A stretch of DNA of 64,000 nucleotides from Magallana gigas (Eukaryota). Made by a program: the position numbers. Every line of letters begins with the position of its first letter. The first letter of the stretch is position 1. Positions 57,501-62,142 of this stretch are shown here, one piece after another. The stretch is from assembly GCF_963853765.1 (NCBI RefSeq), contig NC_088855.1:24180001-24244000 (forward strand). The letters are read 5' to 3'.

Positions 57501-60500
57501 TAAAAATGTAATTTTTCATCTAAAATTGCATATTTTTTTGCCTATTAGACTTAAATACTTCTTATCCATTATGATATCTATCATAATCAAATAATTTTGT
57601 GCTGTTCTAAGAAAATATTTTACGGTGTAGTGATCCACCTTAATAGAGTTATTGGACATTGCTGAGGATCAGATACCGGTATTGTTAAATTGTTATACAT
57701 GTATATATTTAACACAAGAACAAATTTTTCTTTACATCAAGGAACACGAAAAGTATGGATATTTACCAATGCAGCATATTCAGCTTGTTACAACTTTAAG
57801 AAATGATCTTCAAGAGGTGGTATGTACATGTACCGGGTACTCCTGAAGAGCTTGGTCCTTTTCAAAGATAATTAACATTGTTTTTTTCTTTTTTATCCCT
57901 TTTTGTACATTCTCTTCCAGTCAAATAGCAAGAAAAGAAAACTGGAGGAGGTAAAGGAGTCTGCCAAAAGGAGGCAGAAAATGGTGGATGATGACATGGA
58001 CATTGTGGAGGGTAATGAACAGTCAGAATTGACAAGAATATGACACATTTTACATTCTGGGAGTTCTATCCCGTTATTAACTTTCTTGTTTCTGTTGTTG
58101 TAACTTTTCTTATTTGTTAACTTTCTTGTTTCTTGTTCTGTATTTATATATACCAATATGATATTTTTTAAACTCTTTATTTTAGAATCTCCTTCACCAT
58201 CTGTCAATGGTCATGTGTTTGTCCCACCACTTCCAGTAGATACTCCACCCAGCAGACCACCCTTACCCCAAAACACCCCACCCCCAACTCCACCAGCCCC
58301 CAGGCTCAGTCTCCCAAGGGTAGCCAGGGAGATCTCCTTGACCGAGTCGGAGAGATCAGAATCCCCCTCTCTGGAGGAGCTGGAGGGACAACTTAAACTG
58401 CTACAGGAAAAGTTAGCTTCAAGCGAGGGCGATGCAGATCTTCAAATATTGGACAGCTGTGGTGCCAGTGATGATGACAGTAACTCTGATTTGTCTGAAC
58501 TCTTGGCATTAAAGGAGAGGATTCTGAAGAGGACAGATTCAATTTCCTCAATTCAGACCTTTGGTGAGCTAGGCTCTGGTGGATCCTGTCCAGGCACCCC
58601 CCAACCTACCACCAACAATGCAGCTATGAACTCTTTTGGCAGTGTACCCAGTGCCTCGATCTCCAAAGATTTCGGTACTCCCATTGTGAAGGGACCTATT
58701 GAACTGTTACCGGACAGTTCCAAGTTTGGTGACGGAATAGAGGATCATATTCCGTACGAAAATCTGCCGGATGCCACGGGTACTTACGACAAAATCAGAG
58801 ATCTCATCAGTAGAGTTAGAACAATAAAGAAGAAAAAGAAAAAAATAGATTAAGTGTGTATTCATCATGCATCAATTTTGTACCATTTTATGTTTTGTAC
58901 ATTTTCTGCATATATAGTGACTAGTATGCATGCATTAAGAAAACTTCTAATCAACAATATTGGGATAATCATTTACAGCAATAAACATTTAGATTAGTGA
59001 TATAGTAAATGAGAGAAAATATTAATTTATACAAGGTATTCATGAGGCATCAGCAAGTGCAGTTAAGACTGGCATTCGATCTTGGAAAGTTCTCTTTATG
59101 GATCAAACCCGTCCACAGGTTATAGATTAATGTGTCTCTATGTATGACAATGTAAATCTTTGAATTGTGACAATTAAATTTTTAATGAAACCATAAACAC
59201 TTTTGTTTTATCAGGTATTTTAATATATTGTAACCAATGTAGAATCTTGCACTACAAAAAACAGACAACTCCTAATTTACAATTGGAACATTGTTTCGAG
59301 CATTATTTGCTTATTTTCGCTGTGTTTTACATCAAGTTTCCATGATTTGCAAAATATGGCAAAGTTTACATGAAATCCTTCATTTACAGGAAATAGCAAA
59401 AACAAAGCTCAAAAGAGGAGAAAAGTCATGTTGAACAAATATACGGTAAATCTATGCATTCAAGTTTTTCTTCATCATGTCCGTAATTAATTTGTGATCT
59501 TCTGGAAACTTGAGTTTTCTTGGTGGGCCCTTTTTAATACCACTCCAAAGTAAGACTTCTGGAATAGAAAGAAAAGATATAAGATATATTAACCAGTGGT
59601 CCTTATGTGGGATTCATCAATATTCGTTGAAAACCAAAGATACCCAAAATTAAAATGTTTATTAAATGCAATAAGTAGTATCATTTTGAATTGGTACAAT
59701 GTAGGATCACTGACCACAAATTTGTGCATCCTTAAAACTTACTTTCACTATATCCACTAAAACTGATGTCATTAAGGACATGCATGTACATGTATTCATG
59801 AAACCACAGCAGACAATCTGAAGTATTTCAAGTTGTACCATACTTATGAAGTATAGTTGGGAATGAGCTAAAAATGTTCTAAGATGAAATAAACCATAAC
59901 AGGAGACTATAAATTGGTAGGACATTTTAGGACACACAGAAATATATTTCCCGAACTTGTTCCCAATTTCAAGTACATTGCATTAAAATGTTAATATTAA
60001 GGGTAAATAAAATGCATGTACAGTATTCATGTAGATGTGTAAACCTGATGACCTTGATAAGCACAGATTTGCAAAAATTAATGAAACCTGTGCACGTTAT
60101 TCAGGGATTTTTACTCTTGATGGAAACTTATTCATACAGATTAATTTTTCACTTTCCTTTACACCCACACGCACCTGATGTTATATATTTTAATCATAAT
60201 AAAAAATATATACCCCTTTTTCTAATAACCTAATGTTAAATTATTTTTTCATACCGGTTATTAAAAATATACACCTTCTACTTAATAATTATAAGGTAGA
60301 GGGTATATATTTTTTATTATGAGATAACTTTATTATGTCAGGTGCCTTTGCATACACCTTACCTTGAGTTTCTCCATCTTCCACTATCAAAGTGACTTCA
60401 AAACTTCCTCTTCTTGGAGCAGAGGGATTATATTCAATGTGAATATCCTCAACCTCTGCCTTTATTGCCTCAGCCAGAGCTGTGGCCTTCTTCTTGTACA

Positions 60501-62142
60501 CCTGTCAGGATTTGCTGAATGAAAAAAAAAAATGTGAACAATTAAAAATTATATATTCCTGGTATATACATGCATAAACAGAATGTAACTGTATATACTG
60601 AGGTTCTAAAAGAATGTCATTTTTCCTCCTACATTTTTAGTTGAAAGCAACATTTTTCAGAAAATTGTTAGAATGTGATATACTAGTATTGCCCAATTTT
60701 GAAAAGATCTAGAGATAAATTTAAAATTTTCATGCTTTTTTGGCACATAACATGAAATTGTTTTTCAAACCTTCTGTTCCAAAGAATTGTAACTTTTTCA
60801 TGCGTACAAAACTGTAGCTCCCAGGTCATCCATCCGATTTTTTTTTCAGATTGGGGGCTACAGACCTGCAGTAACATTAGGCCATAGGAAAAAAAAGTAT
60901 GGTCCGAAACTGAATTTTAAAGAGATAACCTTAACATCTGACCTAGAGTCAAGGTTCAAGGCAACTGCAAACCCTATACTAATATAGGATAAGCTCTGTT
61001 TATGTGAAGTACAAGTTATACGGGAGAGAATATATGATAGGGATAAAGATTTATTAACATGGTCTGATATTAATACCATAGCCCTTTATCTAGAAACTTT
61101 GTTCAAGGCCTTTGAACACCCTTTGACCAAATGTGATCTGTGGGTGAAGTATGAGCCAGATTATATTGGGGGGAATATGTAAGGGATTAAATGATTTATA
61201 AAATTAAGACAAGGATTTTTGAAACATATTTCTGTTATGACCTTAACCGTAGACCTAAAAACTTGGTTCAAGGTCATTGCACGTCCTTTACCCAAAGGCA
61301 CACTGTGGGTAAAGTATGAACCAGATTGGGCCAAAGGGAGAGAATATATGCTCCTGGGCCCTGGCAAGTAATATCGGACTGACAGCCGACGGACAGTAAT
61401 CACTTTAATGGGGCGCCCGCATACGAGGTCCTAATTATTGAAAATCATAAAAAAAAAATATTGGCTTTGAGTTGACCATAGATTAAACCATCCAAGATCT
61501 CATACAACTATATAACGTTATACATGTAATATAGCGGCATATTGAATATTTACCAGTGTTCAATGACAACTCTTGGAACAGGGGCGCTAGATTTAGCTTT
61601 CTTCTCAGCAACAGTCTCCTCTGATACGTTGGTAGTTTTTGGGACAGTTTTTCGCTTTCTTGGAGGCATTTTCACAAAACCGAAACAGGAGGGGTTCCGA
61701 TAATTTCGCGGGAAATGTACAGAAGTATGGAAAGGCATACGGGTGCTTATGAATATAAAAATTTGTCAAACTTGTAAAATTTACATAGTAAAATTGCCGA
61801 AAATAATGAAAATATATACCCTCTACCTAATGATGCACTTTAAATAAAGGGTATACATCTTTATTACGAGAAATATAAATAACATCATGTGCCTGTTGTT
61901 TTAGTCTCTGTATGGCAGTCCATATAATTTTATCGAAAGAAGTGAAGATAACTCTATTTTTCTCGCACGCTGAATTGGAATTAGGCAATCGCCGCAATGT
62001 CTTCTCCAACCGTTAACAAGATACCAACGCTTGTTCCATCCTTAGATGAGGTTGTATCAGGTACGTTTCTAACTGATTTTGAAAATTCAGTCTTTCCTTT
62101 TGTGTGACATTTTATTCCGTTCAATAATTTAATGCAAATAAT

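What the first reader, a model, noticed from the sequence alone, without database searches (positions are those of the whole stretch)
59320..61669. Complete selenocysteine recoding unit: SELENOH with a CxxU motif split by an intron, and a form-2 SECIS
Seen: splicing 61554 to 60514 creates C-K-S-TGA. The Cys codon (TG|C) is split by intron 1, so the motif is invisible in the ORF track, where exon 2 appears as an unrelated ORF starting after the TGA. A canonical SECIS begins 62 nt after the true stop. Established: SelH is a nucleolar thioredoxin-fold selenoprotein with CxxU, and eukaryotic Sec insertion needs a 3' UTR SECIS. Inference: standard gene finders will truncate or mis-splice this gene, so it may be mis-annotated in this assembly.
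Basis: partly seen in the sequence, partly recalled or inferred. Interest (0 to 1): 0.68.

Follow-up and report, generated by a model that had tools for sequence, protein, structure and literature searches.

The report
Oyster selenoprotein H gene, mis-annotated publicly
This is the Pacific oyster's ordinary selenoprotein H gene, with its selenocysteine UGA codon and a matching 3' UTR hairpin signal, and the public protein models for it wrongly splice the UGA out.

Summary
On the minus strand there is a three-exon gene: 61669-61554, 60514-60363 and 59558-52. It encodes 124 codons plus a stop. The first splice joins TG|C, which gives Cys-Lys-Ser-TGA (TGA at 60507-60505).

A database ORF from intronless contigs (P0068) runs colinearly through all three exons. 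It has W at the TGA, so both junctions and the in-frame TGA occur in transcript-like sequence.

Named relatives are overwhelmingly "selenoprotein H". Orthologues carry W (TGA), a dropped U, or Cys at that position. The neighbouring ZCCHC8 exon is 100% identical to Magallana gigas, so the window is oyster, not human.

The hairpin at 59400-59306 has the AUGA/UGAU core, an 11-position helix II, unpaired AAA and an extra mini-helix (type II). My own descriptor, written after seeing the hairpin, hits only this site in the window. However, Rfam gave no SECIS match in four searches, and the fold energy is unexceptional.

The mis-annotation inference is borne out: K1QN44 and XP_011412475.2/.3 (114 aa) lack exactly the ten residues around Cys-x-x-Sec.

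Verdict: a real, ordinary SELENOH gene. It is already known as a kind and has curation value only. Selenocysteine insertion itself was not shown.

The parts
61736..61738 (-). In-frame upstream ATG, 23 codons before the orthologous start. It could give a possible N-terminal extension, or be part of the 5' UTR.
   Evidence: Sequence. The ORF 61550..61738 is. P0068 starts at the corresponding ATG (tblastn q1-61 maps to 61738..61556).
61554..61669 (-). Exon 1 coding part (ATG 61669; 38 codons plus TG of the Cys codon).
   Evidence: BLASTP to P0068 gives 37/38. The donor is ACACTG|GTAAAT.
60515..61553 (-). Intron 1 (1039 nt, GT..AG, phase 2, inside the first Cys codon of CxxU).
   Evidence: P0068 is colinear across it.
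60363..60514 (-). Exon 2 (152 nt): C of the Cys codon, Lys, Ser, TGA, then 46 codons plus 1 nt.
   Evidence: BLASTP to P0068 gives 48/50. Pfam Rdx scores 18.2 bits for this exon alone.
60505..60507 (-). Sec codon TGA, followed by C. It starts 7 nt after the exon 1/2 junction and ends 142 nt before the exon 2/3 junction.
   Evidence: W at this position in P0068 and in 13 other database ORFs.
59559..60362 (-). Intron 2 (804 nt, GT..AG, phase 1).
   Evidence: The spliced 81-aa ORFs (P0057 and others) read ..GETQ-E-VLLW.. across it.
59452..59558 (-). Exon 3 coding part (2 nt plus 34 codons plus TAG at 59454-59452).
   Evidence: BLASTP to P0068 gives 33/34.
59306..59400 (-). SECIS-like hairpin, type II.
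- Helix I: 59400-59386 with 59323-59306.
- Core: AUGA 59383-59380 and UGAU 59334-59331.
- Helix II: 59379-59369 with 59344-59334.
- Unpaired AAA: 59367-59365.
- Helix III: 59363-59359 with 59350-59346.
   Evidence: The MFE fold recovers this architecture alone and within 252 nt of 3' UTR. It is the only descriptor hit in the window. The core fits UGAN/KGAW of PMC3753652. No Rfam SECIS match.
59181..59224 (-). Two ATTAAA hexamers, starting at 59224 and 59186: candidate polyadenylation signals downstream of the SECIS.
   Evidence: Their use is not shown.

Best explanation
This is the SELENOH (selenoprotein H) gene of the Pacific oyster, Magallana/Crassostrea gigas or a nearly identical relative.

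Its mRNA joins three exons into a 124-codon reading frame. Codon 42 is UGA, inside a Cys-Lys-Ser-Sec motif. In the model, that motif sits between the first strand and first helix of an Rdx-type thioredoxin-like domain.

The UGA is read as selenocysteine because a type II SECIS hairpin lies 317 nt downstream in the same mRNA, and 68 nt from the TAG stop to its AUGA. The standard eukaryotic route would apply: the SECIS recruits SBP2, the Sec-specific elongation factor and Sec-tRNA.

What is shown: the gene structure, the in-frame TGA in transcript-like contigs, the family membership and the hairpin's architecture.

What is inferred from the family:
- actual Sec insertion;
- SBP2 binding;
- a nucleolar redox role.

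If the UGA is read as a stop, it lies 142 nt upstream of the last exon junction. By the mammalian 50-55 nt rule the message should then be open to nonsense-mediated decay.

Automatic gene models avoid the UGA by shifting both splice sites of intron 1. This deletes ten codons, including the active site.
For: Gene model.

Transcript-like support:
- P0068 (147 aa, seen on 2 contigs) matches exon 1 at 37/38, exon 2 at 48/50 and exon 3 at 33/34. Exactly one residue lies between the pieces, C and E, which are the two split codons.
- tblastn of P0068 on the window gives only these three pieces below E = 3.
- Of the 15 listed members of a 27-member cluster, 12 are 81-aa spliced ORFs that start at the GTG right after the TGA. 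One of them (P0057) was seen on 55 contigs and is identical to the window's reading except M for V.

Family:
- M. gigas 'Selenoprotein H', 96% identity.
- Rdx 29.6 bits, above the 22.6 cut-off.
- 106 hits among 228 candidates, mostly named selenoprotein H.
- the nearest Atlas cluster is 'selenoprotein H', score 0.95.

Sec position in 139 held SelH-like sequences:
- 14 read CxxW.
- 13 named mammalian entries read EHCTS-RVY, with the U letter absent.
- 1 plant homologue reads CKQC.
- 4 unspliced ORFs read Ser-[KT]-S-W.
- 107 lack the motif (truncated or skipping).

Fold:
- One search gives strand 56-60, helix 66-82, three strands and helix 134-146. Block pLDDT is 62-86 over the domain.
- The nearest solved folds are MIEN1, SelW-related proteins (TM up to 0.78 on the target) and mouse SelW.

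SECIS. The core consensus and the type II definition are from passages of PMC3753652. The UGA-to-SECIS distance of 317 nt lies within the 207-5207 nt range seen in vertebrates (PMC3316567 passages).

Species: the neighbouring ZCCHC8 exon is 100% identical over 221 aa to M. gigas.
Against: - Rfam release 15 gave no SECIS family match. This held at its gathering score over the whole window, at E<=1 on 4 kb, and at E<=10 on 161 nt and on 79 nt.
- The hairpin is not unusually stable. Its z-score is -0.92, with 35 of 200 shuffles folding at least as well; in 252 nt the z-score is -1.21, with 24 of 200.
- The opposite strand folds about as well: -19.4 kcal/mol, z -1.60.
- My descriptor was relaxed after a stricter one missed the site.
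- No orthologous SECIS DNA could be fetched, so there is no covariation test.
- Reading W in database ORFs as TGA is an inference. The underlying DNA was not seen.
- P0068 rests on 2 contigs of unnamed origin and differs from the window at a few residues.
- Selenium incorporation was not measured.
- A minor TGA-skipping isoform cannot be excluded.
Confidence: 0.93

Rival explanations
1. The public 114-aa model is the real main product. Intron 1 would be spliced from a donor after 61571 to an acceptor before 60501. The mRNA would then have no UGA and the protein no CxxU motif.
For: Both alternative sites are GT..AG and keep the frame. Two database entries carry this form.
Against: - The alternative donor (CCAAGA|GTTGTC) is far from the usual consensus, and the alternative acceptor sits 13 nt past the pyrimidine run. 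The Sec-retaining sites are GTAAAT and T11-CATTCAG.
- The model deletes Pfam Rdx profile positions 1-11: P0041 matches profile 12-71, P0068 matches 1-70.
- No contig-derived ORF seen has this form. The 114-aa cluster holds only the two named models plus one 81-aa ORF.
- 'Skipped' is a recognised annotation artefact for selenoproteins (PMC12822975 passages).
Confidence: 0.03
2. The gene is real and the UGA is in the mRNA, but the hairpin at 59400-59306 is not the functional SECIS. The true element would lie elsewhere, or recoding would be weak.
For: There is no Rfam SECIS match. Fold energy is unexceptional and the opposite strand folds as well. There is no covariation evidence.
Against: - A loose scan of the 3' region 58700-59451 on this strand (NUGA..GA with at least 8 of 10 helix II pairs) finds only this site.
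- The full descriptor finds only this site in 128 kb.
- The core fits UGAN/KGAW.
- The same hairpin is kept in the MFE and centroid of the 252-nt context.
- The next gene, ZCCHC8, ends 599 nt away on the other strand, so little room is left.
Confidence: 0.04
3. The UGA acts as a plain stop, because the locus is a decaying or non-functional copy. It would yield a 41-residue peptide and an NMD target.
For: The UGA is 142 nt upstream of the last junction. No selenium data exist here.
Against: - The frame stays open and conserved for 82 codons after the UGA. Residues that are invariant across relatives are present, such as N91, P92, P95, R96, F100, E101 and the GPPRK..KF block, in P0068 numbering.
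- The same TGA position recurs in at least 13 other ORFs.
- Spliced ORFs were seen on many contigs, which argues for an expressed gene.
Confidence: 0.01

Closest known systems
Vertebrate SELENOH (selenoprotein H)
   Same: - Small protein, 124 aa here against 112-133 aa for named entries.
- Basic N-terminus.
- ..IEH-C-x-S-U-x-V-Y.. motif.
- Conserved PRRGSFE and GPPRKLKFP blocks.
- Rdx domain.
- Sec codon in an internal exon upstream of a junction, as for the mRNAs classed NMD-sensitive in PMC4105750 (passages).
- Predicted thioredoxin fold with CXXU, and nucleolar location with an N-terminal NLS, are described for the human protein in PMC10646972 (passages).
   Different: - The motif is C-K-S-U, not C-T-S-U.
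- The SECIS lies in the same exon as the stop, 68 nt away. PMC3316567 reports that in vertebrate SelH the 3' UTR is split and the SECIS is in the last exon (passage).
- About 45-56% identity.
- Localisation and activity are untested in oyster.
Public M. gigas models K1QN44_MAGGI, XP_011412475.2 and XP_011412475.3
   Same: Same locus and name. Outside the gap they are 108/114 identical to P0068. Each differs from the window's reading at three positions, read.
   Different: They are 114 aa rather than 124 aa. A ten-residue gap removes the end of the first strand and the whole Cys-x-x-Sec motif. This is the 'Skipped' class of PMC12822975.
Rdx family (SelW, SelT, MIEN1, bacterial SelW-related proteins; Pfam PF10262)
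   Same: Strand-helix-strand-strand-strand-helix order, with the redox motif after strand 1. The best fold matches are 2LJK, 2FA8, 2OBK, 2OKA, 2P0G and 2NPB.
   Different: - Sequence similarity to solved members is too low for a PDB sequence hit: 0 hits at E<=1.
- No fold match reached E<=0.001.
- SelH has the long basic N-terminal tail and its own C-terminal block.
Eukaryotic type II SECIS elements
   Same: AUGA..UGAU core, an 11-position helix II with one mismatch, unpaired AAA, an additional 5-bp helix with an 8-nt loop, and location in the 3' UTR (PMC3753652 passages).
   Different: Not recognised by any Rfam SECIS model. It is very A+U-rich. Binding and function are untested.

Membership tests
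SELENOH | Rdx-type domain (Pfam PF10262) above the curated cut-off | tested here: met
   Exon 2 alone scores 18.2 bits, below the 22.6 cut-off. The colinear database protein P0068 scores 29.6 bits over profile 1-70.
SELENOH | Cys-x-x-Sec (TGA) at the start of the domain | tested here: met
   TG|C AAA TCC TGA across the junction. P0068 reads C-K-S-W there. In the model the motif lies between strand 56-60 and helix 66-82.
SELENOH | Closest named relatives are selenoprotein H rather than SelW/SelT/SelV | tested here: met
   named hits are 'Selenoprotein H', 'selenoprotein H-like', or hypothetical; the top cluster is 'selenoprotein H', score 0.95.
SELENOH | Conserved C-terminal blocks (PRRGSFE; GPPRKLKFP) | tested here: met
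   Both blocks are present in exons 2 and 3. These columns are invariant or nearly invariant in the 11-sequence alignment A2.
SELENOH | Basic N-terminal nuclear/nucleolar targeting, AT-hook-like stretch | tested here: inconclusive
   The N-terminus reads M-P-P-R-K-R-K, similar to relatives. No predictor was run. The role is described for human SELENOH in PMC10646972.
SELENOH | Thioredoxin-like fold | tested here: met
   Modest confidence. Mean pLDDT is 66.7, with domain blocks at 62-86, from an 11-row alignment. Top fold matches are Rdx and thioredoxin-fold proteins, but none reaches E<=0.001.
SELENOH | Nucleolar location and redox activity | not testable with these tools
   Needs cell biology and enzymology.
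Eukaryotic SECIS, type II | Kink-turn core UGAN / KGAW with tandem G.A pairs | tested here: met
   AUGAA at 59383-59379 and UGAU at 59334-59331. The consensus is from PMC3753652.
Eukaryotic SECIS, type II | Helix II of defined length, followed by unpaired A residues | tested here: met
   10 of 11 stacked positions pair, then U-AAA-C is unpaired. The exact length limits used by SECISearch3 are in a supplement I could not read.
Eukaryotic SECIS, type II | Additional helix III in the apical region | tested here: met
   A 5-bp helix with an 8-nt loop appears in the MFE and centroid.
Eukaryotic SECIS, type II | Match to a curated covariance model (a detection criterion, not a structural one) | tested here: not met
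   No SECIS family appears in four Rfam searches. SECISearch3/Seblastian were not available.
Eukaryotic SECIS, type II | Position in the 3' UTR at a workable distance from the UGA | tested here: met
   317 nt from the UGA and 68 nt from the stop. PMC3316567 reports a minimum of 51-111 nt and an observed range of 207-5207 nt.
Eukaryotic SECIS, type II | SBP2 binding and support of Sec insertion | not testable with these tools
   Needs a binding or reporter assay.

The most novel reading that the evidence does not exclude
The intron that splits the first Cys codon of Cys-x-x-Sec ends 7 nt before the UGA. It may be kept in place for a reason tied to recoding, not by chance. It is present in oyster, and four other unspliced SelH ORFs also read Ser (AG|C) before [KT]-S-W. 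The exon junction next to the UGA, together with the second junction 142 nt downstream, could set how the first ribosome chooses between Sec insertion and nonsense-mediated decay.
Probability: 0.05. Interest if true: 0.45.

Novelty: already known. Interest (0 to 1): 0.2.

Why it matters
Mainly curation. The oyster's SELENOH is in UniProt and RefSeq under the right name, but with a coding sequence that lacks its active site. The same fault, or a 5' truncation, is seen in other bivalve entries (Mactra, Dreissena, Saccostrea).

Any study that counts oyster selenoproteins, models this protein or designs primers from the public CDS would be misled.

It also gives one concrete mollusc SECIS that the Rfam models miss. 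That is a caution for automated screens of A+U-rich invertebrate genomes.

It opens no new biology. SELENOH, CxxU motifs, SECIS-directed recoding and the mis-annotation of selenoprotein genes are all well described.

Tried and rejected
1. Rfam as a SECIS test. Four searches gave no SECIS family. The weak C/D-box snoRNA rows (SNORD30 E = 1.2 and others) are chance-level and were not used. The GRIK4 3' UTR row (E = 0.012) lies on a run of 32 G and was rejected as a composition artefact.

2. My first SECIS descriptor (10 of 11 helix II pairs plus 6 unbroken helix I pairs) found nothing, not even the candidate, whose helix I has a one-base bulge. The relaxed version is post hoc.

3. Fold energy as evidence. 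It is not discriminating.

I did not pad it.

5. A PDB sequence search with the family profile gave 0 hits at E<=1.

6. A possible recoding-stimulating structure after the UGA. Hairpins exist (z -2.07; 7 of 200 shuffles fold as well), but without orthologous RNA they remain unsupported.

7. Literature on oyster SelH.
- Searches for 'selenoprotein H'+oyster, selenoproteome+gigas+SECIS, SelH+Crassostrea+selenoprotein, SelH/Lottia/selenoproteome and selenoprotein+'Magallana gigas'+'ribosome profiling' found no paper in the held library describing this gene's Sec codon or SECIS.
- Baclaocos et al. 2019 is the most likely place. It is not held, so prior description cannot be excluded.

8. tRNA scan of the window: none found.
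Full report
**What is in the sequence.** The window is A+T-rich (29-39% G+C in 2-kb steps). I read the minus strand from 62000 to 58900.

- An ATG lies at 61669. It is followed by 38 codons and then TG, ending at 61554, with GTAAAT after it.
- After a run of 11 T and CATTCAG, the next exon starts with C at 60514. The spliced frame reads TG|C AAA TCC TGA, that is Cys-Lys-Ser-TGA, with the TGA at 60507-60505 (translations).
- Exon 2 ends at 60363 before GTAAGG. Exon 3 runs 59558-59452 and ends in TAG.
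- Exon lengths are 116, 152 and 107 nt, giving 375 nt or 124 codons plus the stop. The introns are 1039 and 804 nt.
- In the plain ORF list, exon 2 shows up as a separate 70-aa ORF that starts at a GTG just after the TGA. Exon 1 shows up as a 62-aa ORF that runs into the intron.
- One N run (55703-55845) lies elsewhere in the window and was left alone.

**Whose gene it is.** The window is oyster DNA, not human.

- Exon 2 alone, with C standing in for U, finds 'Selenoprotein H' of Magallana gigas (K1QN44 / XP_011412475.2) at 96% identity. That was one of 2 hits among 27 candidates.
- The neighbouring plus-strand exon 58188-58850 is 100% identical over 221 residues to M. gigas ZCCHC8. The next best match is Ostrea edulis at 80%.
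- The SelH reading differs at three residues from each of the two public oyster models. This fits a different haplotype or a very close relative.

**How the spliced model was tested.** The exons were sent one by one.

The join was tested instead against natural database sequences.

- Looking up the clusters of the first hits gave a 27-member cluster, of which 15 members are listed. Twelve of these are 81 aa, one is 82 aa, one is 62 aa and one is 147 aa.
- P0057 (81 aa, seen on 55 contigs) is the window's exon 2 from the codon after TGA-CAG, then Glu, then exon 3. It is identical apart from M for V at a GTG start. A caller that starts at GTG does not splice, so these contigs lack intron 2 and carry a stop just upstream. 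This is an inference.
- P0068 (147 aa, 2 contigs) runs from an upstream ATG through the whole gene and has W where the window has TGA.
- BLASTP places exon 1 at P0068 residues 24-61 (37/38), exon 2 at 63-112 (48/50, one mismatch being the W) and exon 3 at 114-147 (33/34). Single residues C62 and E113 fall at the two split codons.
- tblastn of P0068 on the window under table 4 gives these three pieces and nothing else below E = 3.

Both junctions, including 61554|60514, and the in-frame TGA are therefore present in transcript-like sequence.

**Family.**

- Pfam Rdx (PF10262) scores 18.2 bits for exon 2 alone, under the 22.6 cut-off. It scores 29.6 bits for P0068 over profile positions 1-70.
- P0068 finds 106 proteins at E<=0.001 among 228 candidates. 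The named ones are almost all 'Selenoprotein H' of vertebrates, with bivalve, gastropod and Trichoplax entries as well.
- The nearest ESM Atlas cluster is 'selenoprotein H' at 0.95.
- A structure model from an 11-row alignment is of moderate quality: mean pLDDT 66.7, with 62-86 over the domain. It gives strand 56-60, helix 66-82, strands 87-90, 101-108 and 110-118, and helix 134-146. The C-K-S-W motif sits in the loop after the first strand.
- Its best fold matches in the PDB are MIEN1 (2LJK, E 1.9e-3), bacterial SelW-related proteins (2FA8, 2OBK, 2OKA, 2P0G; target TM 0.61-0.78) and mouse SelW (2NPB), then thioredoxins and PDI domains. None reached E<=0.001.
- A PDB sequence search with the family profile found nothing at E<=1.
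- That MIEN1 belongs to the Rdx family is recalled, not tested.

**The Sec position in relatives.** I classed 139 held SelH-like sequences by script. One unnamed mammal-like row, P0035, was dropped beforehand. My own two exon 2 translations are among the 139.

- 14 read C-x-x-W, all from unnamed contigs, and most as ..EHCKSWQVY...
- 13 named mammalian UniRef entries read EHCTS-RVY, with the residue between S and R missing. I take this to be a dropped U.
- 1 plant protein (Buddleja) reads C-K-Q-C.
- 4 read Ser-[K/T]-S-W with no Cys.
- 107 lack the motif, because they start after the TGA or skip it.

W at a redox Cys/Sec position makes no chemical sense. It is best explained by TGA read under a TGA=Trp code. 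This is an inference, because the DNA was not seen.

The four Ser forms (P0018, P0021, P0029, P0032) follow F/S/Y-rich stretches. The window read unspliced under table 4 gives the same pattern..FFFSFS-KSW-QV. So AG|C, an acceptor inside the Cys codon, seems to be shared by at least four other species of unknown name.

**The SECIS.**

Architecture:
- The MFE fold of 59405-59300 gives helix I (59400-59395 with 59311-59306; 59393-59386 with 59323-59315, with one bulged C).
- Next comes an internal loop holding AUGA (59383-59380) and UGAU (59334-59331).
- Helix II has 11 stacked positions with one A-A mismatch.
- Unpaired U-AAA-C follows.
- The apex is a 5-bp helix III closed by an 8-nt loop.
- This is the type II layout, and the core fits UGAN/KGAW as given in PMC3753652 (passages).
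- The same hairpin survives in the MFE and centroid of 252 nt of 3' UTR, with helix I lengthened.

Uniqueness:
- A structure written in SECIS style, with the core unpaired, costs -18.3 kcal/mol against an MFE of -19.7.
- My descriptor (ATGA, KGAW, helix II with at most one mismatch in 9-13 positions, AA within 3 nt, and 8 helix I pairs with at most one bulge) hits this site and no other on either strand.
- Markov simulations gave a mean of 0.18 hits, with 10 of 60 runs having a hit. Dinucleotide shuffles gave a mean of 0.13, with 13 of 100 having a hit. That is about 0.0006 expected in a 600-nt stretch of one strand.
- A loose scan of the 3' region finds only this site.

Against it:
- A stricter first descriptor missed the site, so the descriptor is post hoc.
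- Rfam gave no SECIS match in four searches.
- The fold is not more stable than shuffles: z -0.92, with 35 of 200 shuffles as good.
- The opposite strand folds as well.
- No orthologous DNA could be fetched for a covariation test.

Positions:
- 68 nt lie between the stop and the AUGA, and 317 nt between the UGA and the AUGA.
- PMC3316567 reports a minimum spacing of 51-111 nt and an observed range of 207-5207 nt in vertebrates.
- The same paper states that in vertebrate SelH the 3' UTR is split and the SECIS lies in the last exon. Here it shares an exon with the stop.
- Two ATTAAA hexamers follow, at 59224 and 59186.

**Mechanism.**

Shown: a spliced message with an in-frame UGA inside a conserved CxxU site, followed by a conserved open frame, with a SECIS-shaped hairpin in the 3' UTR.

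Inferred from what is established for eukaryotic selenoproteins: the hairpin recruits SBP2 and the Sec-specific elongation factor with Sec-tRNA, so that the UGA is read as Sec. The product would be a small thioredoxin-like oxidoreductase. Its basic N-terminus, by analogy with human SELENOH, would take it to the nucleus or nucleolus (PMC10646972 passages).

The UGA is followed by C. As I recall, this is a poor termination context.

The UGA ends 142 nt upstream of the exon 2/3 junction. That is beyond the 50-55 nt limit of the mammalian NMD model, under which SelH mRNA fell in low selenium (PMC4105750 passages). Whether oysters follow that rule is unknown.

**Mis-annotation.**

- K1QN44 / XP_011412475.2 and XP_011412475.3 are 114 aa. 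BLASTP against P0068 shows one ten-residue gap over the motif and 108 identities.
- On the DNA, this corresponds to a donor after 61571 (CCAAGA|GTTGTC) and an acceptor before 60501 (..CCTGACAG|GTGTAC). Both are weaker-looking than the sites used by P0068.
- The public model keeps only Rdx profile positions 12-71.
- This is the 'Skipped' class defined in PMC12822975, which reports such errors as the rule for vertebrate selenoprotein genes outside RefSeq's dedicated pipeline (abstract and passages).
- Other bivalve entries show the same problem: Mactra antiquata KAL4223634.1 and Dreissena polymorpha 'selenoprotein H-like'.
- Two Saccostrea 'partial' entries instead start right after the TGA.
- I cannot say how the assembly this window came from is annotated.

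**Novelty and literature.**

- SELENOH is a long-known family. Jiang et al. 2012 list SelH in several invertebrates but leave the Lottia column blank (PMC3473315, table 1 passage).
- Five searches of the held library found no paper that describes the oyster gene's Sec codon or SECIS.
- The most likely source, Baclaocos et al. 2019, is not held, and supplements are closed. Prior description cannot be ruled out.
- SECISearch3's numeric filters are in a supplement I could not read.

I rate the finding correct, neat and ordinary. It offers a curation fix, plus a small caution that Rfam misses this mollusc SECIS.

Noticed in passing
window 61736-61738 (minus): An in-frame ATG lies 23 codons upstream of the orthologous start. 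It has C at -3, against A at -3 for the ATG at 61669. P0068 begins at the matching ATG, so at least some transcripts include it. It could give an N-terminally extended isoform.
   Followed up: partly
window 60400-60504 (minus): Two hairpins follow the UGA, starting about 20 and 47 nt after it. The MFE is -32.1 kcal/mol and z -2.07; 7 of 200 shuffles fold as well. This could be a recoding-stimulating structure or just coding-sequence noise.
   Followed up: partly
window 55534-58853 (plus): ZCCHC8 gene, convergent with SELENOH. Its last coding exon ends at 58853, about 330-370 nt from the ATTAAA hexamers of SELENOH, so the two 3' UTRs may abut or overlap. The N run at 55703-55845 lies inside this gene and was left alone.
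   Followed up: partly
window 62143-62174: A run of 32 G, which is C on the SELENOH strand, lies about 475 nt upstream of the start codon. It is the cause of a spurious weak Rfam GRIK4 3' UTR row.
   Followed up: yes
window 62435-63003: Degenerate direct repeats with 165-185 nt spacing, 61-88% identity between copies, upstream of SELENOH. This is probably a satellite-like or transposon-derived array.
   Followed up: no
window 60166-60350; 60811-60871 with 63482-63540; 63523-63942: - Inverted repeats of 31-57 nt lie in intron 2.
- A repeat in intron 1 shares arms with the upstream region (91-94% complementary).
- Further inverted repeats lie in the upstream region.
They look like MITE-type transposon ends.
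   Followed up: no
window 27586-28833 and 39006-40337 (minus): Two long uninterrupted ORFs (415 and 443 aa) match rhodopsin-family 7TM receptors: Pfam 7tm_1, E 1.5e-19 and 6.1e-23. They are probably paralogous intronless GPCR genes.
   Followed up: partly
window 46496-47950 and 11426-12541 (minus); 36214-37053 (plus): Long stop-free stretches of 484, 371 and 279 aa have no Pfam match at E<=0.01.
   Followed up: no
window 59327-59387 (minus): The SECIS region gives chance-level rows for C/D-box snoRNA models (SNORD30 E 1.2, SNORD42). This probably reflects the shared UGAUGA../..UGA kink-turn words. It is not evidence of a snoRNA.
   Followed up: yes
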